Sequence record: PQ306574.1
Direction: 5' to 3' (one strand)
DNA length: 64,000 nt
Source: Escherichia phage vB_EcoM_PTE-Eco09
Shown: positions 18 to 14,918 of the stretch, one piece after another
How positions within the stretch are numbered: position 1 is the first letter of the stretch
Layout: the number at the start of each line of letters is the position of its first letter
Notes under the pieces: model-generated
The model's input: only the letters and a program-made list of their open reading frames with translations
Told to the model about the DNA's origin: nothing
The model's database searches: none
Made by a program: the position numbers and the translations under genes

Positions 18-3000
18 TTAGTCTTCCCAGATAAAGTCTACGGTACGAGTCAGATTATTGGCGATGATTTTAACATTACCAACCTTGATCCAGTCACGAA
101 CCGTCATAGAGTTCATTAAACCACCTTCTGCAACAACTGCCCCGATTTCCTGAGCGGTAGGCTTATTCTGTTTGGTGTAAATTTCACCCCATGCGGTCCA
201 TTGACCACCAGTACCGGAACGGATATAATGTTTATGAGTACCATCAGGGGACCAAAGCTGGGTAAGCCCGTCCGCGTCAGTACCCCATTGCATCAGAGTA
301 CCGTTTTTCTTCTCTGGATAAGTTTCTTTGATGTTCTGGGTAGTAACTCGCATATTCCAGAAACCGATGTTACCGATTGCCGGAGCGGTTGCCGCGCTAG
401 CTTCATGCTTAACAGAAACAATAGGCGCATTATCCATAGTCAGCTTGCCGACCATTGTATCGCCAGCATTCTTAACAAACCGACGGTTAAGAACTTCGTC
501 GGCGTTTCCTGCGTGTACGATCTGATATTTCTGTCCGGCGATCTCTGTAGTTAACGTTTGAGAACCTGCCTTGATGTTAACACTTCCACCGTGACCGATA
601 TTCAGCGTACCATCTGGGGAACGAGTCATTGCCGGATTAGACTGGTCAACAATGTATAAACCGCCTTGTTTCGCATACAGGTTACGACCTGCAATAAAGT
701 CTCTATATGCTGTCGCGTCGCCATTGTGTTTCATAGCAAAGGCGTAATGCTCAACGACTCCACCATCATTGATTTTACCGAAAGAGATAGCATCACTATC
801 AACAACTTGCGCTGTTCCAGTACCACCAACGATAATAGACCAAGAGTTTTTCATTCCTTCCGATGCGGTTGTGCCATGCAGAGTAATTCCGGTGTGACCG
901 TCAACTCCACGATCACCCAACACCAGATGACCATTACTCGGAACATCGGTCGAGTTCTTAGTCACAGACAGAGTTTCAAAGGAACCTGATTTTAAGCACT
1001 CTAAATCGCCCTTCACGTTAACGTTTTTATTAAACGTGTAATTGCTCTCTATGGTCTGATCAATGTCTCTACGCGCCCATTTAGAGGCCTCTACGTTACC
1101 CAATTTCAAACTATTCTGAGCGGTTGCCATCTTAGGTAAGAAATTAGCAAGTGCGTAGTTTAATCCTTTAGGGGTAACAGCAATTCCGTCATGCTGGTAG
1201 TTTCCTAGTTCTTGAGTAGAACCTTGCAGATTATCACCAACAAAACAGTTTTCCTGAGTAGCAACTTTCAAGAATCCACGACGCGCTTCGGTTGCTTTCC
1301 ATGTATCCTCTGTCTGAACAACATATTTGAAGTTCTTCGGAGAAATTGCTACATTGTCCATAATACCAGCCACGGTTTCGGCGTGAGTACCAACTCGGAT
1401 AATACCTTCTTTACCTTCGGTGGCCTTTTTGCCTTGCAGCTTTTTAGGCGTGATGATTGTAGTATCATCTTGACCAGCGTCAGTAAGCTGAGTAGTCGCA
1501 ACTTTAGCGACACCTTTTGTATCTTCGGTTGCATCCAGACCGCTGATCATGATACCTTGCCACAAATCACCAGTAAGGTTAAGCCCCTGAGTCGGATCTA
1601 CTTTCAAACGCTGTGCATTCTCAAAGAAGGTTTTAATCTTCAATGGGGTAGAAATGCGATCATCGTCACGACCTGCGTCAAATTCCGGCTGAGTTGCAAT
1701 TTCTGCTAAACCGTGTAAAGTTTCCGTTGCGCGGCGAGTATGCAACTTTTTAGGCGTGATGATATGGTTATCACTTTGACCTAAGTTTGTTTCTTCCTGA
1801 GTTGCAATTTCAGCGATACCAGTGCGCGATTCGGTAGCAGTACGTTTCGTTAGCGTGCGAGTCGTGATTAGTAAAGCATCTTGCGGGGTTGATTCTGTAG
1901 CCCCTTGCACTTCCGCGTCAGTTGCCAGATAGCCAACACCACGGGAAGTTTCGGTCGCCTTGACTTCGTTGATGTTTTGTGGCGTAACAATTTTAGCATG
2001 GTCGTTGATGTTATAGATCCCTGTACCAGCTTCGCCACGTCGAGCGGCAGCACTACCGCCAACCTGAACAATTTCAGCAATACCAGCGAGATCTTCGGAA
2101 GCGCGACGTTCTTCTAATTTCTTAGGAGTTATTGCGCGAGTATCGTCTAAACCTTCATTGGTTTCGTGCTGGGTTGCAATTTCCATCACACCACGACGGG
2201 CTTCGGTAGCAACACAGTCATTTAACTTTTTGGGTGTAACGATAACATCATCCAGGAAGTTGGAACCAGTATCTTGATGCGTTTCCGCTTGAGTCGCAAT
2301 GCGAGCAATACCGCGTCGAGTTTCGTTGGCTGTTTTATTAGACAGCATTTTTGGTGTTACAGCAACTTCGTCGCTAGGATTCTCTTCATGGTTTTTATTC
2401 GTTTCAGTCTGGGTAGCCAGTGCAATTACACCAACACGATCTTTACGAGTCGGATCTACTCGTTCTACAATCGGGTGAGCATGTGCCACCAACCAGTATT
2501 TCTTACCATCATCACCTTCTGAATAAGAGAACTCCAGATAAGGTACATAATCATTTGCAGCGTTGAAAGACAATTCAGACACTCCAGTCCATGTATCGGT
2601 CCCATTGAATGGGTACTCGCTACGCTTAGGAAACTGAACCATGTTTTTCTGCATAAGGATTTTTGTATCCTCTTCTGAGGTAATGATTCGGCAAGTCTGG
2701 TTTCCGTGCATATACTGCATAGAAACTTGAATACGATCACCCGGCTCGACATTGGTCGGCAGCGTCAGAGTAACATCACGACCACCAAATACAGCAACAT
2801 AGCTATTAGGTTGCAAGCGAGTGTCATTGATGATCGGTTTAAGACGAACAGACTGATCACCATCCCACAAACGCCATAAGTTTTCCGTCTTGTCAAAGAT
2901 GAATACACCATGACCGCTACGCTTACCGATAATCTCTTTTAGACCGGACGTGCCAATTGATTGTTCTTCTGCGTGCTCATGAACTTTAACCGTAACGTGG

Positions 3001-3758
3001 TTGGTTGCGGTTAATCCGTCAAGGTCTGTAGTCTGGATCATGTCGCCATTGTTGGCAAACTTAGGAAGCACTAAGGTAATATTACCCAACGAACTACGAC
3101 GAAATACCTGATCACCATTCTGCATTTGAATAGCATCAATCGCTGGCTGTGCGTACACACCGCGTGGCTCTGTTCCTGTCTGATAAACATGCCAACGATT
3201 ACGAACAAAGATGAAATAGTTCATTGCATACGGGGTAGTGCAATACCATTTTCGGTTGTACACATTACCGTTATGGTAAAACTCATGTCCTGTACTCAAA
3301 AACGATAATTCGTTAACACCACACTTGCCACCGATATCTTTTACTGTTATAGTGTCTCCCTCTGCTGGTTTAGTTGGCATAGAGAAAGTCAAGTTTGCAA
3401 ATTGACCATCTGCTGCGATATAATCACCAGACTGTAAAGGAGTATCACCGGAAGTTGCTGCAATATAATCCCAACGTGGGTCCGTGCGCAGTGCTTGCCA
3501 TTTAGTCGGGTCAAAATCACCTGCTGGCTTTGTGATATCTTCTTTTGCATAATACGGACGGTTTTGATAGATTGTAGTTCCGTATTGATCATAACCGCGA
3601 GTTGTGTCATACTGAGTAATGCCATTATGGTAATTGAAAAATTCAACGTTGACCGCATCCGTTGATGTGTTTTTATCTGCGTATGCTACATTGACGACCT
3701 TTTCATTACCAGCGTCAAAGCCAAATGTGGCCTTGAAATGTTGAGAAAAATCTGCCAT
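18..3758 (-). CDS. 34: long tail fiber proximal subunit (gp34-like)
   Basis: 1246-aa ORF; motifs IGGKxGVN, LPKFANNGD, ENLWRLWDGD, VQFPKRSEYP and C-terminal ...NVKIIANNLTRTVDFIWED match the T4 gp34 pattern as recalled; divergent from rnh as in T4. Confidence 0.85.
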   Translation of the reverse strand: MADFSQHFKATFGFDAGNEKVVNVAYADKNTSTDAVNVEFFNYHNGITQYDTTRGYDQYGTTIYQNRPYYAKEDITKPAGDFDPTKWQALRTDPRWDYIAATSGDTPLQSGDYIAADGQFANLTFSMPTKPAEGDTITVKDIGGKCGVNELSFLSTGHEFYHNGNVYNRKWYCTTPYAMNYFIFVRNRWHVYQTGTEPRGVYAQPAIDAIQMQNGDQVFRRSSLGNITLVLPKFANNGDMIQTTDLDGLTATNHVTVKVHEHAEEQSIGTSGLKEIIGKRSGHGVFIFDKTENLWRLWDGDQSVRLKPIINDTRLQPNSYVAVFGGRDVTLTLPTNVEPGDRIQVSMQYMHGNQTCRIITSEEDTKILMQKNMVQFPKRSEYPFNGTDTWTGVSELSFNAANDYVPYLEFSYSEGDDGKKYWLVAHAHPIVERVDPTRKDRVGVIALATQTETNKNHEENPSDEVAVTPKMLSNKTANETRRGIARIATQAETHQDTGSNFLDDVIVTPKKLNDCVATEARRGVMEIATQHETNEGLDDTRAITPKKLEERRASEDLAGIAEIVQVGGSAAARRGEAGTGIYNINDHAKIVTPQNINEVKATETSRGVGYLATDAEVQGATESTPQDALLITTRTLTKRTATESRTGIAEIATQEETNLGQSDNHIITPKKLHTRRATETLHGLAEIATQPEFDAGRDDDRISTPLKIKTFFENAQRLKVDPTQGLNLTGDLWQGIMISGLDATEDTKGVAKVATTQLTDAGQDDTTIITPKKLQGKKATEGKEGIIRVGTHAETVAGIMDNVAISPKNFKYVVQTEDTWKATEARRGFLKVATQENCFVGDNLQGSTQELGNYQHDGIAVTPKGLNYALANFLPKMATAQNSLKLGNVEASKWARRDIDQTIESNYTFNKNVNVKGDLECLKSGSFETLSVTKNSTDVPSNGHLVLGDRGVDGHTGITLHGTTASEGMKNSWSIIVGGTGTAQVVDSDAISFGKINDGGVVEHYAFAMKHNGDATAYRDFIAGRNLYAKQGGLYIVDQSNPAMTRSPDGTLNIGHGGSVNIKAGSQTLTTEIAGQKYQIVHAGNADEVLNRRFVKNAGDTMVGKLTMDNAPIVSVKHEASAATAPAIGNIGFWNMRVTTQNIKETYPEKKNGTLMQWGTDADGLTQLWSPDGTHKHYIRSGTGGQWTAWGEIYTKQNKPTAQEIGAVVAEGGLMNSMTVRDWIKVGNVKIIANNLTRTVDFIWED

Positions 3759-3792: not shown

Positions 3793-4374
3793 TTGTGTGA
3801 GGTGTTTGTTGTGGCAAAAACAAAATTTTGGGATATCGAGACACAGAAAGCGATAAAAGGTAGATTCTATCATGTCGATGGAATATTATACCATTTAAAG
3901 GATTCTGTAGCTGCTGGATTCCGAAAAGAAGGGTCCATATACAAAAAAGGTGATGTGGTAAGGGTATGTCTCCATAAAGAAGGATATTTATACTTTACAT
4001 TTTACAACAATGGTCATAAACTTAATCTGTTTGTACATAGAGTTGTCTGGTTTTTAGAGTATGGTACTCAGGTTGAACGAATAGATCACATAGACCAAGA
4101 CAAAACTAACAATAGACCGTCAAACATGAGAGAAGCAACCGAACAGCAAAATCAGTTTAACGTCTCAAAGAAAAAGGCTTGCCATAGCAAATATAAAGGT
4201 GTATCATTATCACCAAGCAAGAAAAAGCCGTGGAAGGCGTATATTGTTATCAATCGAAAGAATATACATCTAGGATACTTTGAGACAGAAGTTGAGGCGG
4301 CTAAGGCTTATGACCGTGCAGCACATGAAATAGTTGGCGAGTATGCTTATTTAAATTTTCCAAAAAGAGGATGA
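3793..4374 (+). CDS. HNH homing-endonuclease-like protein with AP2-type DNA-binding domain
   Basis: HNH-like block (IDHIDQDKTNNRPSNMRE) followed by AP2-like block (KPWKAYIVINRKNIHLGYFETEVEAAKAYDRAA); no in-frame ATG at 5' end, probable TTG/GTG start (3793/3802/3811) after SD GAGGTG. Confidence 0.55.
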   Translation: MCEVFVVAKTKFWDIETQKAIKGRFYHVDGILYHLKDSVAAGFRKEGSIYKKGDVVRVCLHKEGYLYFTFYNNGHKLNLFVHRVVWFLEYGTQVERIDHIDQDKTNNRPSNMREATEQQNQFNVSKKKACHSKYKGVSLSPSKKKPWKAYIVINRKNIHLGYFETEVEAAKAYDRAAHEIVGEYAYLNFPKRG

Positions 4375-10136: not shown

Positions 10137-10466
10137 ATGTGGACAGTAGAAAAAATCGTTGACGAATCAACCGAAATTGTCTCGTGTGGCACTATTGAAG
10201 AATGTCTTAAAGCCGCTAACCGTGAATGTATTACGGTTTATGAATCCCGTCGCGGTGATGGTAGCTTGATTCAAAGTGATTATCGTTACACCGCACATAA
10301 AATTGTATTCCGTTTCTGGGAAAACGGTGTCAATGTCGGTGTCAGCTTACTGAAAATGTGGCGTGATTATTCCGAACGCTACTATGTTTCTCCTGATGAT
10401 GGTAATGAATTTAAGACAGCAATCACAGAAGAAAATGTAAACGAAAACTATTTCAAACTGATTTGA
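10137..10466 (+). CDS. hypothetical protein
   Basis: 109-aa ORF downstream of promoter; no recognisable domain. Confidence 0.45.
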   Translation: MWTVEKIVDESTEIVSCGTIEECLKAANRECITVYESRRGDGSLIQSDYRYTAHKIVFRFWENGVNVGVSLLKMWRDYSERYYVSPDDGNEFKTAITEENVNENYFKLI

Positions 10467-10481
10467 TGGGAGATTTATATT

Positions 10482-11051
10482 ATGATTCAATGTGTATTTG
10501 CTATTGGTGACACTAAAATGTCAGATGAAAATTGGGCTTTTGGTTTTAAAGGCGGTTTACCGTGGGGGCGTCCAATTAAAAAGGACATGGAAAACTTTAA
10601 AATGCGCACTATGGGAGATGTTGATCTTGCGGCGGTTGTAATGGGACGTAATACCTTTGAAAGTCTGCCTAAAGCACTGGAAGGTCGTCTTAATGTGGTT
10701 ATTAGTACCGATGCCAGCAAGCCGACACCGAAAGCCAAAAACGGCGACCAGCCTAATGTGTATACTGGAATTGAATTAAAGGATCTGTTAAAAGTCCTGG
10801 AGAAAACGCAAGGTTTGGTAAGTGTTATCGGTGGACCTTCCCTGATTGAAAAAGCGGTTGACTTTGCGGATCGTATTGTGTTAACATATGTTCAACGAGC
10901 AGGAATTAATGATCCGTTCGAATATGATGTTGGTATCTCTAAGGAAATGATTCAGGAATTATATTTTGACTTTGCAACAAAAGAAGAACATAATTACTTC
11001 CTTGATGATTACCTGATCAGCGAACAAATTTTAGAACGTAAGAAGGCGTAA
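10482..11051 (+). CDS. frd: dihydrofolate reductase
   Basis: 189-aa ORF in frd position before td; N-terminal region resembles recalled T4 Frd / DHFR fold (GLPWGR, MGRNTFESLP, GRLNVVIS). Confidence 0.8.
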   Translation: MIQCVFAIGDTKMSDENWAFGFKGGLPWGRPIKKDMENFKMRTMGDVDLAAVVMGRNTFESLPKALEGRLNVVISTDASKPTPKAKNGDQPNVYTGIELKDLLKVLEKTQGLVSVIGGPSLIEKAVDFADRIVLTYVQRAGINDPFEYDVGISKEMIQELYFDFATKEEHNYFLDDYLISEQILERKKA

Positions 11052-11144
11052 CATGAAAATTCTGACAGATTATGAGTGCAAACATTGTGGTGAATCTTTG
11101 ATGTTTGCTGGTAGTCGGTGCTTACATTGCGGACGGGAACAATA

Positions 11145-11414
11145 ATGAAAGTCGGTATTATTCAATTATGGACGGCTACCAGTGAAAACTACGCAGTAGC
11201 CGTAGATTATTACGGTTTACAATATCTCTATGATGAAGCGAGCGCATCATGGCTTCCTGTGCAAGAAAATAGCGATATCTCAAGACCTGCTACTATATTC
11301 GACCGTGGCGTTGTCTTTATCGATATTGACGAGACAGTAGCAAAACTGCGTAAGAAAGCAATCAACAAGAAAAAGGTGATGTGGGATGAAAGAATATTTG
11401 AAACTATTGCGTGA
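11145..11414 (+). CDS. hypothetical protein (frd-td intergenic ORF)
   Basis: ORF with ATG at 11145 overlapping td start; no recognisable domain. Confidence 0.35.
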   Translation: MKVGIIQLWTATSENYAVAVDYYGLQYLYDEASASWLPVQENSDISRPATIFDRGVVFIDIDETVAKLRKKAINKKKVMWDERIFETIA

Positions 11415-12606
11415 TGTTCTCGATAATGGCTGGCCTCGTGAAGATCGAACGGGGGTAGGTACGCTCTCTAAATTCGGCGCAGAGATGCGAATTGACTTAA
11501 GCAAGGGTTTCCCATTACTGACCACTAAAAAGATGGCTACAGCCTCTGTAATTGGCGAATTGCTATGGTTTATGGAGGGATCACTTGACCGCCGTCGCTT
11601 ACAGGAAATTACACGCGGTAAGTTTGACGAAGAAGCCTTCGACATTTGGCGCGGCAACTGTCTTGATATGAAAGAAAAGAATCCTTTGCGATTCAATGGT
11701 TATAATGTCGGCAATATGTATGGTATGGCGTGGCGACGCAAACCGATTCATCCACACGGTGAAATCAAAATTAAGCGCGTTAAGAGCAAATATACACATA
11801 CATTTAAGCACCCGTGGGTAGAAGACTTTACGCCAACCAATGAAACAGAAGACCGTTTATGTGCTATCTGGCGTGGTATGCGTTATGAAGAGTTTGATTA
11901 TATTCTGGTAGCAGACCACTGGAAGACTCAATCTAATTTTGTTAATGATGCATATTGCTTGTGGGGATTCCAGGAATGGGTAGATGATGGTTATTTCGGT
12001 TATCTGCTTGATAGTGATTATCTGGGTGGGGATATTATAGCACCGGATACCACGATGTTTGTTAGTATGGACGTAGACACATCAAGCACTAAAGACGATG
12101 AAGAATATGTCTATCGCCCGAAGATTTGGGAAGACCAGTTACAAAACGTGATCGAACAAATTAAAAACAATCCAACGGATCGCCGGATCATTATTGACTC
12201 ATGGAACGTACAAGGAACACATAATGCTGTATTAGGTGTATGTCATCCTTTCGTGCAATTCTACGTCAATGAAGGTAAACTGTCTTGTATGTGGTTTCAG
12301 CGAAGCGTAGACAGCTTTTTAGGCTTGCCCTTTAACGTCGCCAGCTATGCGCTGTTAACTCACATCATAGCGAAAATGTGTGATCTTGAGGTAGGAGAAC
12401 TGATTTTCTCTGGTGGAGATACTCACATTTACAAAAACCATTTTGATCAAGTCATGGAACAGTTAAGCCGTGTTCCGTTTGATAAACCAACAATTGAGTT
12501 GCCGGAATTTAAATCTTTAGATGAGGTATTGACAAAGACTCCGAAAGACTTTAAAATTCACAACTATCAAAGCCATCCAGCGATCACCGCTCAAATGGCA
12601 GTATAA
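11386..12606 (+). CDS. td: thymidylate synthase with large in-frame insertion
   Basis: Canonical ThyA blocks (DRTGVGT, FPLLTTKK, ELLWF, DRRIIIDSWN, CHPFVQFYV, LSCMWFQRSVD, FLGLPFNVASYALL, GDTHIYKNH) but 406 aa versus about 264-286 aa for typical enzymes. Confidence 0.9.
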   Translation: MKEYLKLLRDVLDNGWPREDRTGVGTLSKFGAEMRIDLSKGFPLLTTKKMATASVIGELLWFMEGSLDRRRLQEITRGKFDEEAFDIWRGNCLDMKEKNPLRFNGYNVGNMYGMAWRRKPIHPHGEIKIKRVKSKYTHTFKHPWVEDFTPTNETEDRLCAIWRGMRYEEFDYILVADHWKTQSNFVNDAYCLWGFQEWVDDGYFGYLLDSDYLGGDIIAPDTTMFVSMDVDTSSTKDDEEYVYRPKIWEDQLQNVIEQIKNNPTDRRIIIDSWNVQGTHNAVLGVCHPFVQFYVNEGKLSCMWFQRSVDSFLGLPFNVASYALLTHIIAKMCDLEVGELIFSGGDTHIYKNHFDQVMEQLSRVPFDKPTIELPEFKSLDEVLTKTPKDFKIHNYQSHPAITAQMAV

Positions 12607-12609
12607 ACA

Positions 12610-12629
12610 AAGGGGGCGAAAGCCCCCAA
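12610..12629 (+). other. GC-rich hairpin with GAAA loop (GGGGGCGAAAGCCCCC) between td and nrdA
   Basis: Perfect 6-bp G/C stem with GNRA-type loop; no U-tract on + strand, T-tract on - strand. Confidence 0.5.
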
Positions 12630-12674
12630 TATGGAGGATAAACTTGTTCCTGCTAAAATATGAAGTGAGGTAAT

Positions 12675-14918
12675 ATGATTAAAAATGTTGTTAAGTCTTC
12701 CGGTCTGACTGTTCCGTTTGAAAAAGAAAAAGTAATGAAAATTCTGGAAGCGGCAGCCGAAGGTCATAACGTTGATCCATATGAATTGTTTGATATGGTT
12801 GAACCACTTCTGACAGAAGGTATGTCTACCAATGATATCCAGAAAGTATTGATTAAGGTCGCCGCAGATAACATCACGGTAGAAACACCCGATTATCAAT
12901 ATGTAGCAAGTAACCTTGCAATGTTCGCGCTTCGTAAATCAGTATACGGTCAATTCCAACCTATTGATTTTTATAGCCATATTGAGCGTAATATTGCAAC
13001 CGGAAAATATGATCGCGAAATTCTGCAAAAATATTCCCGTGAAGAAGTGGAATATCTGGAGAAATTCATCGACCATAAACTTGATTTTAAAATGACCTAT
13101 GCTGGTGCGATGCAGTTAAAAGAGAAATATCTTGTTCAGGATCGCAGCACTAAGAAAATCATCGAAACACCGCAATTTGCGTATATGCTGATCGGTATGT
13201 GCTTGCATCAAGAAGAGACCGAAAATCGACTTGAACATGTGATTGATTTTTATAATGCGGTTGCGAATAAGCAAATCTCTCTGCCTACTCCGATTATGGC
13301 AGGTGTGCGTACCCCAACACGCCAATTTAGTTCGTGTGTGGTGATTGAAAGTGATGACTCATTGCAGGGTATTAATGAAACCGCAAATGCAATCATCAAG
13401 TATATTAGCAAGCGTGCTGGTATCGGTATCAACGCTGGCATGATTCGCGCGGAAGGATCTAAGATCGGGCATGGTGAAGTTCGTCATACTGGAGTTATCC
13501 CATTCTGGAAACATTTTCAGACTGCCGTTAAGTCATGCTCACAAGGCGGTATTCGTGGCGGGGCGGCGACTCTCTATTACCCAATGTGGCATTTAGAGTT
13601 TGAAAGTCTGATTGTGTTAAAGAACAATAAGGGGGTGGAAGATAACCGCATTCGTCATCTTGATTACGGCGTACAGATTAATAACCTGATGGTAGAGCGA
13701 TTCCTTAAACGGGATTACATTACTCTGTTTAGTCCAGATGTTGCAGGTGGCTTGTTGTGGGATCTATACTTCCGAGATGAGGAAGGTTTCCGCCAGCTTT
13801 ACGAAAAACTGGAAAAAGATCCGAGTGTTCGTAAAACTCGTGTTAAAGCCGAAGACCTGTTTTTAGCGGTGGCAATTGAACGTTTTAACACTGGTCGAAT
13901 CTACCCAACGTTCACAGACAACATGAACAATCACGGGGCGTTTATTCGTAATGTAGCACCGATTAAACAATCTAACCTGTGTTGTGAAATTGCTCTGCCA
14001 ACAAAACCGATGGGTCGTGATGATTCAGAGATCAGCCTATGCACTTTGGCAGCATATGTTTTAGGTAATTTCGATATCGAAAATATGGAAGAAGTAGAAC
14101 GCATTGCTATGGTTATGGTGCGTGCACTTGACAACCTGTTAGATTATCAGGATTATCCTGTAGAACAAGCTCTGACAGCCAAAAAACGTCGCTCTCTGGG
14201 TGTTGGTGTGACTAACTTTGCATCGTATCTAGCAGATAATTTCTTCACATATGAAGACGCTAGCGAGTTTACGCATAAAACGTTTGAACGCTTGCAATAT
14301 GCTCTGATTAAGGCTAGTGTGCGACTGGCTAAAGAGAAGGGTGCTTGCGAACTGATGCACGAAACACGCTATGGTCGCGGTGAACTTCCTATCGACTGGT
14401 ACAAAAAGACAGTAGATGAACTGGTTGATCCGGTGTATGAGATGGATTGGGAAGAACTGCGCGAAGACCTGAAAAAATATGGCATTCGTAACAGTACGCT
14501 TTCGGCGCTGATGCCCTGTGAGTCATCTTCTCAGGTGTCTAACAGCACAAACGGTATTGAACCGCCTCGCGGGATTGTATCGGTTAAAGGATCGAAAGAA
14601 GGGCAATTTAATCAGGTTATTCCGAACGTAGAGAATAATGCTGATGTTATTGACCTGCTTTGGACACTGATCAAGAAAGGTAACAAGCCCTATCTGACAC
14701 TGGCAGCGATCATGCAGAAGTTTGTAGATCAGGCGATTAGTTCCAATACATCCTATGATCCAAGCACTTATAAGACTGGTAAAGTCGATATTGCTGATGT
14801 GTTAGATGATATGTTGTTCGCTCAACATTACGGTCTGAAAACCCTGTATTATGCGAACGTTCGCGACGGTGCAGATGGTACGGAAGACGCTAGCGAGTGC
14901 TCATCTTGCAAGCTGTAA
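12675..14918 (+). CDS. nrdA: aerobic ribonucleotide reductase large subunit
   Basis: 747-aa ORF with class I RNR alpha features and C-terminal Cys pair (ECSSCKL). Confidence 0.95.
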   Translation: MIKNVVKSSGLTVPFEKEKVMKILEAAAEGHNVDPYELFDMVEPLLTEGMSTNDIQKVLIKVAADNITVETPDYQYVASNLAMFALRKSVYGQFQPIDFYSHIERNIATGKYDREILQKYSREEVEYLEKFIDHKLDFKMTYAGAMQLKEKYLVQDRSTKKIIETPQFAYMLIGMCLHQEETENRLEHVIDFYNAVANKQISLPTPIMAGVRTPTRQFSSCVVIESDDSLQGINETANAIIKYISKRAGIGINAGMIRAEGSKIGHGEVRHTGVIPFWKHFQTAVKSCSQGGIRGGAATLYYPMWHLEFESLIVLKNNKGVEDNRIRHLDYGVQINNLMVERFLKRDYITLFSPDVAGGLLWDLYFRDEEGFRQLYEKLEKDPSVRKTRVKAEDLFLAVAIERFNTGRIYPTFTDNMNNHGAFIRNVAPIKQSNLCCEIALPTKPMGRDDSEISLCTLAAYVLGNFDIENMEEVERIAMVMVRALDNLLDYQDYPVEQALTAKKRRSLGVGVTNFASYLADNFFTYEDASEFTHKTFERLQYALIKASVRLAKEKGACELMHETRYGRGELPIDWYKKTVDELVDPVYEMDWEELREDLKKYGIRNSTLSALMPCESSSQVSNSTNGIEPPRGIVSVKGSKEGQFNQVIPNVENNADVIDLLWTLIKKGNKPYLTLAAIMQKFVDQAISSNTSYDPSTYKTGKVDIADVLDDMLFAQHYGLKTLYYANVRDGADGTEDASECSSCKL

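What the first reader, a model, noticed from the sequence alone, without database searches (positions are those of the whole stretch)
11740..12129. Insertion of about 130 aa in thymidylate synthase
All ThyA catalytic blocks are present and in frame, but between the GYNVGNMYGMAWRR block and the DQLQNVIEQIKNNPTDRRIII block there are about 130 residues where E. coli ThyA has about 7. The insert is rich in aromatics (W/Y/F) and has no intein junction residues and no frame break, so it looks like an inserted protein domain in the variable 'small domain' region rather than an intron or intein.
Basis: partly seen in the sequence, partly recalled or inferred. Interest (0 to 1): 0.6.

Follow-up and report, generated by a model that had tools for sequence, protein, structure and literature searches.

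The report
Dead homing-endonuclease domain inside thymidylate synthase
The thymidylate synthase of this RB49-like coliphage carries, in one surface loop, a 131-residue folded domain that is the shrunken, inactivated remnant of a phage homing endonuclease; intact versions in other phages appear to spread as in-frame protein domains, without an intron or an intein.

Summary
The td ORF (11386..12606, 406 aa) is a complete ThyA with one contiguous 131-aa block (aa 119-249, nt 11740-12132) where E. coli ThyA has 9 residues. It is not an intron, an intein or an artefact: all 58 Krischvirus records with a td match carry it.

The block is homologous to the divergent HNH module of 'IPA-HNH' homing endonucleases (Barth et al. 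2023; ICP1 gp59). Other phage TS genes carry a full ~245-aa version at the same site: N-terminal beta domain, helical domain, HNH-like motif and a NUMOD-like tail. The Krischvirus copy keeps only the two junctions and the middle part. It retains the hydrophobic core residues but has lost the family's invariant polar residues (K, Y, S, C 0/7; N 3/7, D in the window). It has also turned acidic (pI 4.8 against 8.2-9.3).

AlphaFold predicts a confident autonomous domain (pLDDT 93-94). dN/dS is 0.12-0.42 for the insert against 0.01-0.09 for the core.

Intact versions look mobile. UE-S1 carries one while about 20 relatives 95% identical in the flanks lack it, and the replaced tract includes flanking td codons.

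Verdict: a fixed, degenerate relic of an in-frame, non-splicing homing-endonuclease insertion. No paper found here describes it.

The parts
11386..12606 (+). td (thyA-type thymidylate synthase) ORF, 406 aa plus stop, in frd-td-nrdA synteny
   Evidence: ORF list; PF00303 E=1.5e-84; E. coli ThyA E=1e-68; RB49/Phi1/JSE td annotation
11386..11739 (+). TS core, N-terminal part (aa 1-118), ending in GNMYGMAWRR
   Evidence: Aligned to E. coli ThyA 1-~101; invariant D20 R21 T22 G25 W116 R117
11740..12132 (+). The insert: 131 aa (aa 119-249), a degenerate IPA-HNH homing-endonuclease-like module read in the TS frame
   Evidence: Boundaries from MAFFT. Homology: tblastn to UE-S1 TS insert E=2e-12; HMM built from free-standing proteins only E=9e-5; hhalign 97%, E=1e-10. 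Autonomous fold, pLDDT 93.6
11737..11775 (+). Predicted long beta-strand 1 (aa 118-130, RKPIHPHGEIKIK): N-terminal junction, conserved in long and short inserts (PHG.I.I.R); inferred to form half of a two-stranded stalk
   Evidence: DSSP of models; junction conservation. Pairing of the two strands is inferred, because model coordinates could not be inspected
11842..11985 (+). Helical subdomain (aa 153-200), equivalent to the family's KLY.IW..M..RCY...V.VC..W.NF.NF segment. It has a ~10-aa deletion and keeps W162, W179 and F185
   Evidence: DSSP helices 153-171, 177-180, 182-189, 195-200; column table; alignments
11896..11904 (+). Indel hot spot within the insert: RB49-type alleles have 4 extra residues here (FD-SEYN-LFLV against the window's FD-YILV)
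   Evidence: 390-nt against 402-nt insert variants among Krischvirus; P0001 against window. This is the lowest pLDDT block of the insert (88)
12001..12081 (+). Degenerate HNH-like (beta-beta-alpha-metal) motif, aa 206-232: YLLDSDYLGGDIIAPDTTMFVSMDVDT, against the family's QLDKD..GN.IYSPDTC.F.P..IN
12106..12135 (+). Predicted long beta-strand 2 (aa 241-250, EYVYRPKIWED): C-terminal junction, conserved in long and short inserts (.V.RP.I.)
   Evidence: DSSP; junction conservation
12133..12603 (+). TS core, C-terminal part (aa 250-406), including catalytic C286 (CHPF), R266/R267, R306-S307-D309, N317 and H347-Y349
   Evidence: Aligned to E. coli ThyA 110-264; invariant columns; dN/dS 0.01-0.09

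Best explanation
The 131-residue block is the fixed, shrunken and inactivated remnant of an IPA-HNH-type homing-endonuclease module. An ancestor of this td lineage acquired the module as an in-frame insertion in a surface loop (E. coli ThyA 101-109).

In the intact form, seen in Asteriusvirus UE-S1, Klebsiella Alcyoneusvirus KP13-7 and many metagenomic TS, the whole ~245-aa endonuclease-like protein is translated as an internal domain of TS. No intron or intein is needed, because the loop tolerates a domain held between two long strands. I infer that this TS-endonuclease fusion cuts insert-free td alleles during co-infection, and that repair copies the insert together with flanking td sequence.

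The Krischvirus lineage has lost the N-terminal beta domain, the NUMOD-like DNA-binding tail, ~10 residues of the helical domain and the invariant polar motif residues, and the domain has become acidic. It therefore most likely neither binds nor cuts DNA. What remains is a compact folded domain on a working thymidylate synthase. Purifying selection is weakened but real, probably because a misfolding or imprecisely deleted insert would destroy an important enzyme. The insert may also keep the td target site interrupted, which would protect it from active relatives.

Shown here: the block, its homology, its predicted fold, the loss of signature residues, dN/dS and the presence/absence mosaics. 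Inferred: nuclease activity of the intact forms, homing, inactivity of the relic and the reason it is retained.
For: Single block at one loop. A homology chain links the window insert to the HEG family: window insert to UE-S1 TS insert by tblastn E=2e-12; UE-S1 insert to PHROG 'HNH endonuclease' families at 4e-32 and 7e-25; UE-S1 insert to 1,131 phage records, mostly free-standing HNH/HTH homing-endonuclease ORFs, including ICP1 'previously GP59', a founding IPA-HNH HEG (PMC10448857). Independent tests agree: an HMM built only from 48 free-standing proteins hits window td 169-241 at E=9e-5, hits the short-insert TS (1e-4 to 7e-3 for five of six; P0006 0.1) and hits no ordinary TS; hhalign gives 97%, E=1.1e-10. 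Free-standing members behave as HEGs: they sit next to group I intron matches that split T7-like terminase genes. A deletion series runs from long to short inserts with conserved junctions. Signature residues are lost while core residues are kept. Charge flips from pI 8.2-9.3 to 4.8. The fold is confident and autonomous; the best PDB fold match is the HNH enzyme PacI, and BFVD matches are insert-bearing TS and phage homing endonucleases. dN/dS is 0.12-0.42 for the insert and 0.01-0.09 for the core. Mobility signatures: UE-S1 against 121Q td is ~97% nt identical at codons 1-90 and 455-517 but ~50% in between; at a second TS site, 2 of 31 Schiekvirus records carry the module. The short insert is inherited vertically in gp32-frd-td-nrdA synteny.
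Confidence: 0.75

Rival explanations
1. Same origin, different present. The relic has been exapted and now does something useful for the phage, for example docking Td into the T4-type dNTP-synthesising enzyme complex, binding another phage or host protein, or regulating TS. It is kept for that function, not merely because it is hard to delete.
For: dN/dS 0.12-0.42, clearly below 1, in every comparison. The insert is retained in frame in all 58 Krischvirus records and in T4-like relatives with only 60-67% core identity. Confident compact fold. Strongly conserved surface-type motifs within short inserts (DAYCLWGFQEWVD, GGDI.APDT). The shift to an acidic surface could reflect a new binding function.
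Against: Selection is 3-10 times more relaxed than on the core. Length varies between close relatives (4-aa indel, 126-139 aa). Insert identity falls much faster than core identity (55% against 85%). No partner or activity is known. Purifying selection on foldability alone would give the same numbers.
Confidence: 0.2
2. The insert is still an active homing endonuclease, or at least a site-specific DNA-binding domain, working from within Td.
For: It is homologous to a homing-endonuclease family. It keeps both aspartates of LDxD (D209, D211) and the fold. HNH enzymes can work with a non-canonical general base, for example Tyr in PacI (PMC4081073).
Against: The family-invariant K, Y, S and C are all replaced in 7/7 short inserts, and the helix N is D in the window. 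The N-terminal beta domain and the NUMOD-like or AP2-type DNA-binding tail are deleted. Net charge is -11, pI 4.8. The insert is fixed in every Krischvirus td record found (58 of 58), so no empty target exists in this group.
Confidence: 0.03
3. An ordinary lineage-specific elaboration of the TS small domain, like the 50-residue L. casei insertion, unrelated to mobile elements. Alternatively, the endonuclease family could derive from the TS insert rather than the reverse.
For: TS is known to tolerate length variation in this region (L. casei 316 aa against E. coli 264 aa). Pfam finds nothing in the insert.
Against: Homology to free-standing phage proteins is significant by three independent routes. 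Free-standing homologs occur at 1,588 places in 1,131 phage records, against only 11 TS-embedded representatives in 1.84 billion proteins. The module occurs at two different TS sites and in TS of different clades (P0017, P0137, A2). It shows presence/absence among near-identical genomes.
Confidence: 0.02
4. A self-splicing element (group I intron read through in frame, or an intein), or a sequencing or assembly artefact.
For: T4 td famously contains a group I intron. Inteins occur in phage nucleotide-metabolism genes (bioRxiv 10.1101/2025.01.02.630785).
Against: No Rfam hit at E<=1. Nolan et al. found no group I introns in RB49 (PMC1524935). The reading frame is uninterrupted and under purifying selection at the protein level. 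There is no Hint domain, no C/S/T at the junctions and no HN (and the sequence). No alternative-frame ORF of at least 40 aa lies beyond nt 11821. The same block is present in 58 independently sequenced genomes.
Confidence: 0.01

Closest known systems
[quoted passage not shown]
   Same: The module is homologous to these proteins. The long TS insert hits ICP1 gp59. The window insert hits a profile of free-standing members. Both share the W..M..RCY / VC..W.NF.NF / LDKD..YSP.TC.F..N architecture, both are too divergent for the Pfam HNH models, and both associate with essential nucleotide-metabolism or replication genes.
   Different: Described IPA-HNH genes are separate ORFs, free-standing or intron-associated, with a C-terminal AP2 domain. 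Here the module is translated inside the host enzyme. The long TS versions have a NUMOD-like tail instead of AP2. The window copy has no DNA-binding tail, no N-terminal beta domain and none of the invariant polar residues. Barth et al. do not mention TS and state that T4 has no IPA-HNH genes.
ShiLan domain (Arsenault, Gosselin & Gogarten 2025, PMC11855218)
   Same: It is an insertion in a phage enzyme gene (a DNA methylase) that stays open in the host frame, is neither an intron nor an intein, behaves like a homing element and is predicted to loop out of the host protein.
   Different: In ShiLan the HNH endonuclease is encoded out of frame and the in-frame product is a bystander loop. Here the endonuclease-like module is itself the in-frame product, and no alternative-frame ORF exists. 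The host gene, the phage group and the HNH subfamily all differ.
Inteins and mini-inteins with decayed endonucleases
   Same: In-frame invasion of a conserved enzyme by a homing-endonuclease-bearing element. The endonuclease part then decays and shrinks once the element is fixed (the homing cycle).
   Different: There is no Hint splicing domain, no junction nucleophiles and no sign of excision. The insert stays in the mature protein, so the host tolerates it structurally rather than by splicing (and the sequence).
T4 td group I intron with I-TevI, and HEG-split genes (Aeh1 nrdA/mobE)
   Same: The same host gene family (td) and the same gene neighbourhood are targeted by homing endonucleases in T4-like phages. 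Flanking exon sequence is co-converted.
   Different: Those elements avoid disrupting the protein by RNA splicing or by splitting the gene into two polypeptides. Here there is a single polypeptide with an internal extra domain. No intron was detected.
L. casei-type small-domain insertion of ThyA (PDB 1lca family)
   Same: Extra residues in the variable small-domain region of an otherwise canonical ThyA.
   Different: The loop differs (E. coli ~84-88 against 101-109 here). The insert aligns to no solved TS. The origin is also different, namely a mobile endonuclease. The Enterococcus phage A2 and P0137 proteins do carry the endonuclease module at the L. casei-type site.
PacI restriction endonuclease (PDB 3m7k)
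   Same: It is the best structural match of the insert model. It is a small HNH (beta-beta-alpha-metal) enzyme related to homing endonucleases that lacks the canonical His general base.

Membership tests
ThyA-type thymidylate synthase (PF00303) | Profile match above the curated threshold over the whole fold | tested here: met
   PF00303 283.8 bits against a cut-off of 24.3, in two stretches flanking the insert; E. coli ThyA E=1e-68
ThyA-type thymidylate synthase (PF00303) | Catalytic Cys and dUMP/folate-binding residues conserved | tested here: met
   C286-H287, R21, R266/R267, R306-S307-D309, N317 and H347-Y349 are invariant columns in a 57-sequence alignment; core dN/dS 0.01-0.09
ThyA-type thymidylate synthase (PF00303) | Enzymatic dTMP synthesis | not testable with these tools
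   Needs an assay or thyA complementation
IPA-HNH homing endonucleases (Barth et al. 2023) | Sequence homology to the divergent N-terminal HNH-like domain of ICP1 gp59/gp209/gp115-116 and relatives | tested here: met
   UE-S1 long insert to ICP1 gp59, tblastn E=5e-9. Window insert to a free-standing-only HMM, E=9e-5. hhalign 97%, E=1.1e-10. The link from the window to ICP1 is transitive through profiles
IPA-HNH homing endonucleases (Barth et al. 2023) | Family-invariant polar motif residues (LDKD Lys, YSP Tyr/Ser, TC.F Cys, helix Asn) | tested here: not met
   Window has S210, I218, A219, T223 and D231. Counts: K 39/39 and Y 39/39 in free-standing plus long inserts against 0/7 in short inserts; S 38/39 against 0/7; C 36/39 against 0/7; N 37/39 against 3/7
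IPA-HNH homing endonucleases (Barth et al. 2023) | C-terminal AP2 (or other) DNA-binding domain | tested here: not met
   No AP2 or NUMOD segment in the window insert. The NUMOD-like tail of long inserts is deleted. Net charge -11
IPA-HNH homing endonucleases (Barth et al. 2023) | Separate gene (free-standing or intron-borne) next to or within an essential gene | tested here: not met
   The module is read as an internal part of td, with no internal start and no alternative-frame ORF
IPA-HNH homing endonucleases (Barth et al. 2023) | Site-specific DNA cleavage and homing | not testable with these tools
   No biochemical data for any family member in the papers read. There is only indirect evidence for the long forms, from the mosaics
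Canonical HNH / HNH_3 nuclease (PF01844, PF13392) | Profile match; His general base and Asn/His metal ligands in a beta-beta-alpha-metal fold | tested here: not met
Intein | Hint splicing domain; N-terminal Cys/Ser; C-terminal His-Asn followed by Cys/Ser/Thr | tested here: not met
   No Pfam hit on the insert. The insert starts with K119-P120 and ends with W248-E249, followed by D250
Group I / group II intron | Catalytic RNA structure; interruption of the reading frame | tested here: not met
   No Rfam match at E<=1 in 11200-12800. The frame is continuous and under protein-level purifying selection
ShiLan-type insertion (hidden out-of-frame HNH) | An endonuclease ORF in another frame of the insertion | tested here: not met
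   The only alternative-frame ORFs of at least 40 aa touching the insert end by nt 11821. The homology to endonucleases is in the TS frame
L. casei-type ThyA small-domain insertion | Extra helices inserted between E. coli residues ~84 and ~88; homologous among Gram-positive ThyA | tested here: not met
   The window insert lies after W116-R117-R118 (E. coli 99-101), not before the G.LG.VYG block. No residue of 119-249 aligns to any solved TS, including 1lca

The most novel reading that the evidence does not exclude
The TS inserts may reveal a further lifestyle for homing endonucleases, besides free-standing genes, intron ORFs and inteins. In this lifestyle the endonuclease invades a tolerant surface loop of an essential enzyme directly in frame and is expressed as a permanent internal domain of a bifunctional enzyme-nuclease. 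It homes between phages with co-conversion of flanking codons, as in UE-S1 against 121Q at one TS site and Schiekvirus A2 against its relatives at a second site. After fixation it decays into a new structural domain of the host protein, as in Krischvirus Td. This would be a direct route by which selfish nucleases create domain insertions in core metabolic enzymes.
Probability: 0.45. Interest if true: 0.8.

Novelty: new variant of a known kind. Interest (0 to 1): 0.62.

Why it matters
Homing endonucleases are thought to survive in essential genes by hiding in self-splicing introns or inteins, or by sitting between genes. These thymidylate synthases suggest a simpler route: insert in frame into a loop that tolerates a whole extra domain and stay in the mature protein.

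If the intact versions are active, they are natural enzyme-nuclease fusions with a built-in, testable target, the insert-free td allele of sister phages. They would also explain mosaic td genes in jumbo phages.

The Krischvirus copy shows the end point. A selfish nuclease has decayed into a stable 131-residue domain of a core metabolic enzyme, retained in every RB49-group td record found since RB49 was sequenced and annotated only as 'thymidylate synthase'. This gives a concrete, datable example of how domain insertions in enzymes can originate. It is also a warning for annotation: Vibrio phage D181's TS-family protein is labelled 'HNH endonuclease'. Finally, it offers a naturally validated permissive site in ThyA for protein engineering.

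Tried and rejected
1. The large word-indexed protein search with the insert alone found nothing. The exhaustive HMMER search later found 11 representatives, all TS.

2. Pfam on the insert, on UE-S1 TS and on the D181 protein gave no domain other than PF00303. The PHROG hit of the window insert alone was only marginal (E=0.064). Homology needed intermediates and profiles.

3. Intron: no Rfam hit. Intein: no features. Hidden out-of-frame ORF as in ShiLan: none. All three rejected.

4. An HMM that included the window insert hit td, but that test is circular. I replaced it with a profile built from free-standing proteins only.

5. I looked for another copy of the module in the window. There is none. 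ORF 3793..4374 matched only through its AP2 domain and is a canonical HNH-AP2 gene.

6. I looked for a close td relative lacking the insert, to date the insertion in the Krischvirus lineage. None exists in the phage collection: identity drops from at least 90% to under 60%. All closer metagenomic relatives (P0002-P0006) already carry the short form.

8. I could not read model coordinates, so contacts between the insert, the active site and the dimer interface were not analysed.

9. Literature searches for RB49 td insertions or in-frame endonuclease domains in TS found no description.
Full report
**1. What is there**

The window comes from a Krischvirus, the RB49/Phi1/JSE group of T4-like coliphages. 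Nucleotides 10400-13000 match 49 Escherichia phage genomes at 95-100% identity. ORF 11386..12606 (+) encodes a 406-aa protein lying between frd (10482..11051) and nrdA (12675..14918).

- It is a ThyA-type thymidylate synthase. PF00303 scores 283.8 bits and E. coli ThyA gives E=1e-68.
- Both matches split in two. Residues 1-~118 align to ThyA 1-~101, and residues 250-406 align to ThyA 110-264.
- In a multiple alignment the window has 131 residues (aa 119-249, nt 11740-12132) between GNMYGMAWRR and DQLQNVIEQIK. E. coli has 9 there and ordinary phage TS have 4-31.
- The insert has 17% aromatic residues, against 11% in the core.
- All catalytic and substrate-binding residues of TS are invariant.

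**2. What it is not**

- No RNA family, group I introns included, matches 11200-12800 at E<=1.
- The frame is continuous.
- The junction residues (K119; E249 followed by D250) are not intein-like, and Pfam finds no Hint or any other domain in the insert.
- No alternative-frame ORF of at least 40 aa extends beyond nt 11821. This rules out the 'hidden out-of-frame HNH' arrangement of the ShiLan domain (PMC11855218).
- It is not an artefact. All 58 phage records whose td is at least 90% identical carry the block. They carry it in two length variants, 390 or 402 nt.

**3. Where it comes from**

A tblastn search with the insert found two distant hits. One is the 517-aa TS of the jumbo coliphage UE-S1 (34% identity, E=2e-12). 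The other is a 477-aa TS-family protein of Vibrio phage D181, annotated 'HNH endonuclease' (E=7e-7). Both carry a larger insert at the same position.

- The UE-S1 insert (~245 aa) matches PHROG 'HNH endonuclease' families at E=4e-32 and 7e-25.
- It has homologs at 1,588 places in 1,131 phage records. Most are small separate ORFs annotated HNH or HTH homing endonuclease, or DNA-binding protein.
- One of these is ICP1 'previously GP59'. gp59 is one of the three proteins on which Barth, Dunham and Seed (2023) founded the 'IPA-HNH' class. These are HNH-like domains too divergent for the Pfam HNH_3 model, usually followed by an AP2 domain (PMC10448857).
- Free-standing members behave like homing-endonuclease genes. 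In the T7-like phages fPS-64 and CHRF_10027 the ~180-aa homolog lies between two pieces of the large terminase gene, directly after a group I intron match (Rfam RF00028, E=1e-3 and 4e-9, both below the gathering score).

The window insert belongs to this family by tests that do not use it as training data.

- A profile built only from 48 free-standing proteins hits window td residues 169-241 at E=9e-5. It hits five of the six short-insert TS at 1e-4 to 7e-3 (P0006 scores 0.1) and hits no ordinary TS.
- A profile-profile comparison of short inserts against free-standing proteins gives 97% probability and E=1.1e-10 over 70 columns.

**4. A deletion series**

The large protein database holds 17 clusters of insert-bearing TS found with the full td query, and further searches found more.

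Long inserts (244-283 aa) have four segments:
- (i) a beta-rich N-terminal part (G.YEVIGK..VVI.F..TGS..IKD.F.PSVEGVGYLG);
- (ii) a helical part (KLY.IWKDMIIRVYNPR..H.SY..V.VCKRW.NF.NFY.D);
- (iii) an HNH-like motif (QLDKDYYGS.IYSPDTC.F....NK.LNGGG);
- (iv) a NUMOD1-like tail (GFKIY.Y...FYS...LQ..RGL.RKA).

The short inserts comprise the window and P0001-P0006 (126-139 aa).
- They keep both junctions (KP.HPHG.I.I.R and EYVYRPKIW).
- They have lost (i) and (iv), and have a ~10-aa deletion in (ii).
- They keep (iii) in altered form (LLDSDYLGGDIIAPDTTMFVSMDVD).
- P0014, D181, P0124 and P0128 are intermediates.

The window also encodes a canonical HNH-AP2 gene at 3793..4374. Set against its RIDHIDQDKTNNRPSNMREAT..QN, the family motif LDKD..GN.IYSP.TC.F..IN occupies the HNH position, with Lys in place of the catalytic His.

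A column count over 28 free-standing, 11 long-insert and 7 short-insert sequences gives the following:

| Position | Free-standing + long | Short inserts | Window residue |
|---|---|---|---|
| Lys of LDKD | 39/39 | 0/7 | S210 |
| Tyr of YSP | 39/39 | 0/7 | I218 |
| Ser of YSP | 38/39 | 0/7 | A219 |
| Cys of TC.F | 36/39 | 0/7 | T223 |
| helix Asn | 37/39 | 3/7 | D231 |

The hydrophobic core residues W162, W179, F185, L208, P220, T222 and F225 are kept in 7/7 short inserts. Long inserts and free-standing proteins are basic (pI 8.2-9.3, net +2 to +13). Short inserts are acidic; the window insert has pI 4.8 and net charge -11. This pattern is what a fold that has been preserved while DNA binding and catalysis were lost would look like.

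**5. Structure**

- AlphaFold2 with a 57-sequence alignment gives mean pLDDT 93.1 and pTM 0.91 for the whole protein. Insert blocks score 88-98.
- The insert alone gives pLDDT 93.6 and pTM 0.86, so it is predicted to be an autonomous domain.
- Two long strands (118-130 and 241-250) lie at its ends. I infer that they pair as a stalk, but I could not inspect coordinates. They enclose helices 153-200 and short strands 206-209 and 224-227.
- Foldseek against viral predicted structures returns over-long phage TS (491 and 564 aa). After those come small phage proteins that include annotated HNH homing endonucleases and the nieznany homolog (E=5e-5 to 1e-2).

**6. Selection**

Nei-Gojobori dN/dS in 13 pairwise comparisons is 0.01-0.09 for the TS core and 0.12-0.42 for the insert (the fourteenth pair was saturated). 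For example, window against P0002 gives core 0.09 and insert 0.16; window against Phi1 gives 0.04 and 0.42. Insert identity falls faster than core identity (50% against 67%, and 55% against 85%). The insert is therefore under real but relaxed purifying selection. The short form sits in conserved gp32-frd-td-nrdA synteny in Krischvirus and in three metagenomic T4-like lineages, so it is inherited vertically.

**7. Signs that the intact form is mobile**

- UE-S1 carries the insert. About 20 Asteriusvirus genomes (121Q, PBECO4, phAPEC6 and others) are ~95% identical in the flanks and have a 309-aa TS without it.
- Codon by codon, UE-S1 and 121Q td are ~97% identical at the nucleotide level over codons 1-90 and 455-517. 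They are only ~50% identical between those points.
- The replaced tract thus contains the insert plus ~25 upstream and ~90 downstream td codons. That is what endonuclease-initiated gene conversion with co-conversion of flanks would produce. Ordinary recombination cannot be excluded.
- The same insert, at 82% nt identity, occurs in Klebsiella Alcyoneusvirus KP13-7 and phiKp_21.
- P0017 carries it in a TS of the ordinary DLGRVYG.QWR clade.
- A second, independent site exists. In Enterococcus phage A2 and in P0137 the module, with a NUMOD1-like HTH, is inserted between E. coli positions ~83 and ~88. From memory, this is the site of the L. casei insertion.
- Among the 31 Schiekvirus records with a match, only A2 and phage 163 match across at least 80% of the query. 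Most of the rest, at 89-96% identity, match in two pieces across a shorter interval.

**8. Mechanism proposed**

Shown: the points in sections 1-7.

Inferred:
- The intact module is a nuclease that, as part of the TS polypeptide, cuts insert-free td alleles and is copied in by repair.
- The loop at E. coli 101-109 tolerates the domain, so no splicing is needed.
- In the Krischvirus lineage the element became fixed and then lost its DNA-binding parts and active-site residues.
- It survives as a compact domain because imprecise loss or misfolding would damage TS. The interrupted target site may also protect td from active relatives.

A present-day exapted role, such as protein-protein docking, is compatible with the dN/dS values. 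It is my main rival explanation, at about 0.2.

**9. Relation to what is known**

The closest named family is IPA-HNH. The window insert meets the homology criterion. It fails the motif, DNA-binding-domain and separate-gene criteria, so I describe it as a derived relic of that family, not as a member in working order.

The closest concept is the ShiLan domain, which differs in that its endonuclease is encoded out of frame. Inteins, the T4 td intron with I-TevI and HEG-split genes solve the same problem by splicing or by splitting the gene, and here neither occurs.

The papers I could search do not describe the RB49-group td insert or any TS-embedded IPA-HNH module. Nolan et al. 2006 list only two HNH/AP2 ORFs for RB49 and no introns.

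**10. Verdict**

The feature in the window is itself a fossil, which limits its interest. It does, however, point to an apparently undescribed in-frame, non-splicing way for homing endonucleases to live inside an essential enzyme, one that can be tested directly in available phages.

- Novelty: new variant of a known kind.
- Interest: 0.62.

Noticed in passing
window 3793..4374 (+): A 193-aa ORF is a canonical HNH_3 + AP2 homing-endonuclease-like gene (RIDHIDQDKTNNRPSNMREATEQQN, then YKGVSL...WKAYI...LGYFETEVEAAKAYDRAA). It lies just beyond the 5' end of a 1246-aa minus-strand ORF (18..3758), transcribed divergently. It matches the free-standing IPA-HNH profile only through its AP2 domain (E=4e-10). 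It is probably the RB49ORF040c-type 'AP2 domain HNH endonuclease' of Nolan et al. 2006.
   Followed up: partly
window 11118..11414 (+): A 98-aa ORF overlaps the td start codon by 29 nt. It is annotated as a hypothetical protein (RB49ORF236c / phi1p236) in relatives. It had a marginal, probably meaningless, hit to the module profile (E=0.013).
   Followed up: no
L009:4588-7239 (metagenomic T4-like phage carrying P0005 td): nrdA is split into a 476-aa piece and a piece of at least 324 aa by a 237-aa ORF with a faint I-HmuI NUMOD-like hit. This is a homing-endonuclease-split ribonucleotide reductase like Aeh1 nrdA/mobE, two genes downstream of the insert-bearing td.
   Followed up: no
L003:792-3331 and L004:645-3242 (T7-like phages fPS-64 and CHRF_10027): The large terminase gene is in two pieces, separated by a group I intron match (Rfam RF00028, E=1e-3 and 4e-9, below the gathering score) and a ~180-aa free-standing IPA-HNH-like ORF with no AP2 domain. 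fPS-64 also has a second annotated homing endonuclease immediately upstream.
   Followed up: partly
L002:2638-4071 (Vibrio phage D181) and D148: A 477-aa TS-family protein with the endonuclease module is annotated 'HNH endonuclease'. Its TS core is divergent (ETRSG instead of DRTG; DAHTY instead of GDTHIY), so it may not be a dTMP synthase but another member of the TS/hydroxymethylase superfamily.
   Followed up: no
L006:2090-3565 (Enterococcus phage vB_EfaM_A2): A 491-aa 'thymidylate synthase' carries the module plus a NUMOD1-like HTH at the L. casei-type site. Its N-terminal core is atypical (no DRTGTGT motif), which suggests a TS-like pyrimidine hydroxymethylase or modifying enzyme. Only A2 and phage 163 among 31 Schiekvirus records carry the insert.
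   Followed up: partly
L007:671-1693 and L008:476-1693 (metagenomic Krischvirus-like contigs): Between gene 32 and frd lies a 340-405-aa ORF with CapR domains (PF21817). This DNA-binding domain is typical of T5orf172 homing endonucleases in ICP1, so it is another HEG-related gene in the same neighbourhood. Its length differs between the two contigs.
   Followed up: no
window 11590-11739 and the corresponding region of all insert-bearing TS: TS proteins carrying the insert at this site almost all share an unusual upstream flank (DIW.GNCLD....NP.RFNGYN.GNMY....WR) instead of the usual TIW..NA......A.F.GDLG.VYG.QWR. In UE-S1 this flank was imported together with the insert. It may mark the co-converted, cleavage-resistant version of the endonuclease target.
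   Followed up: partly
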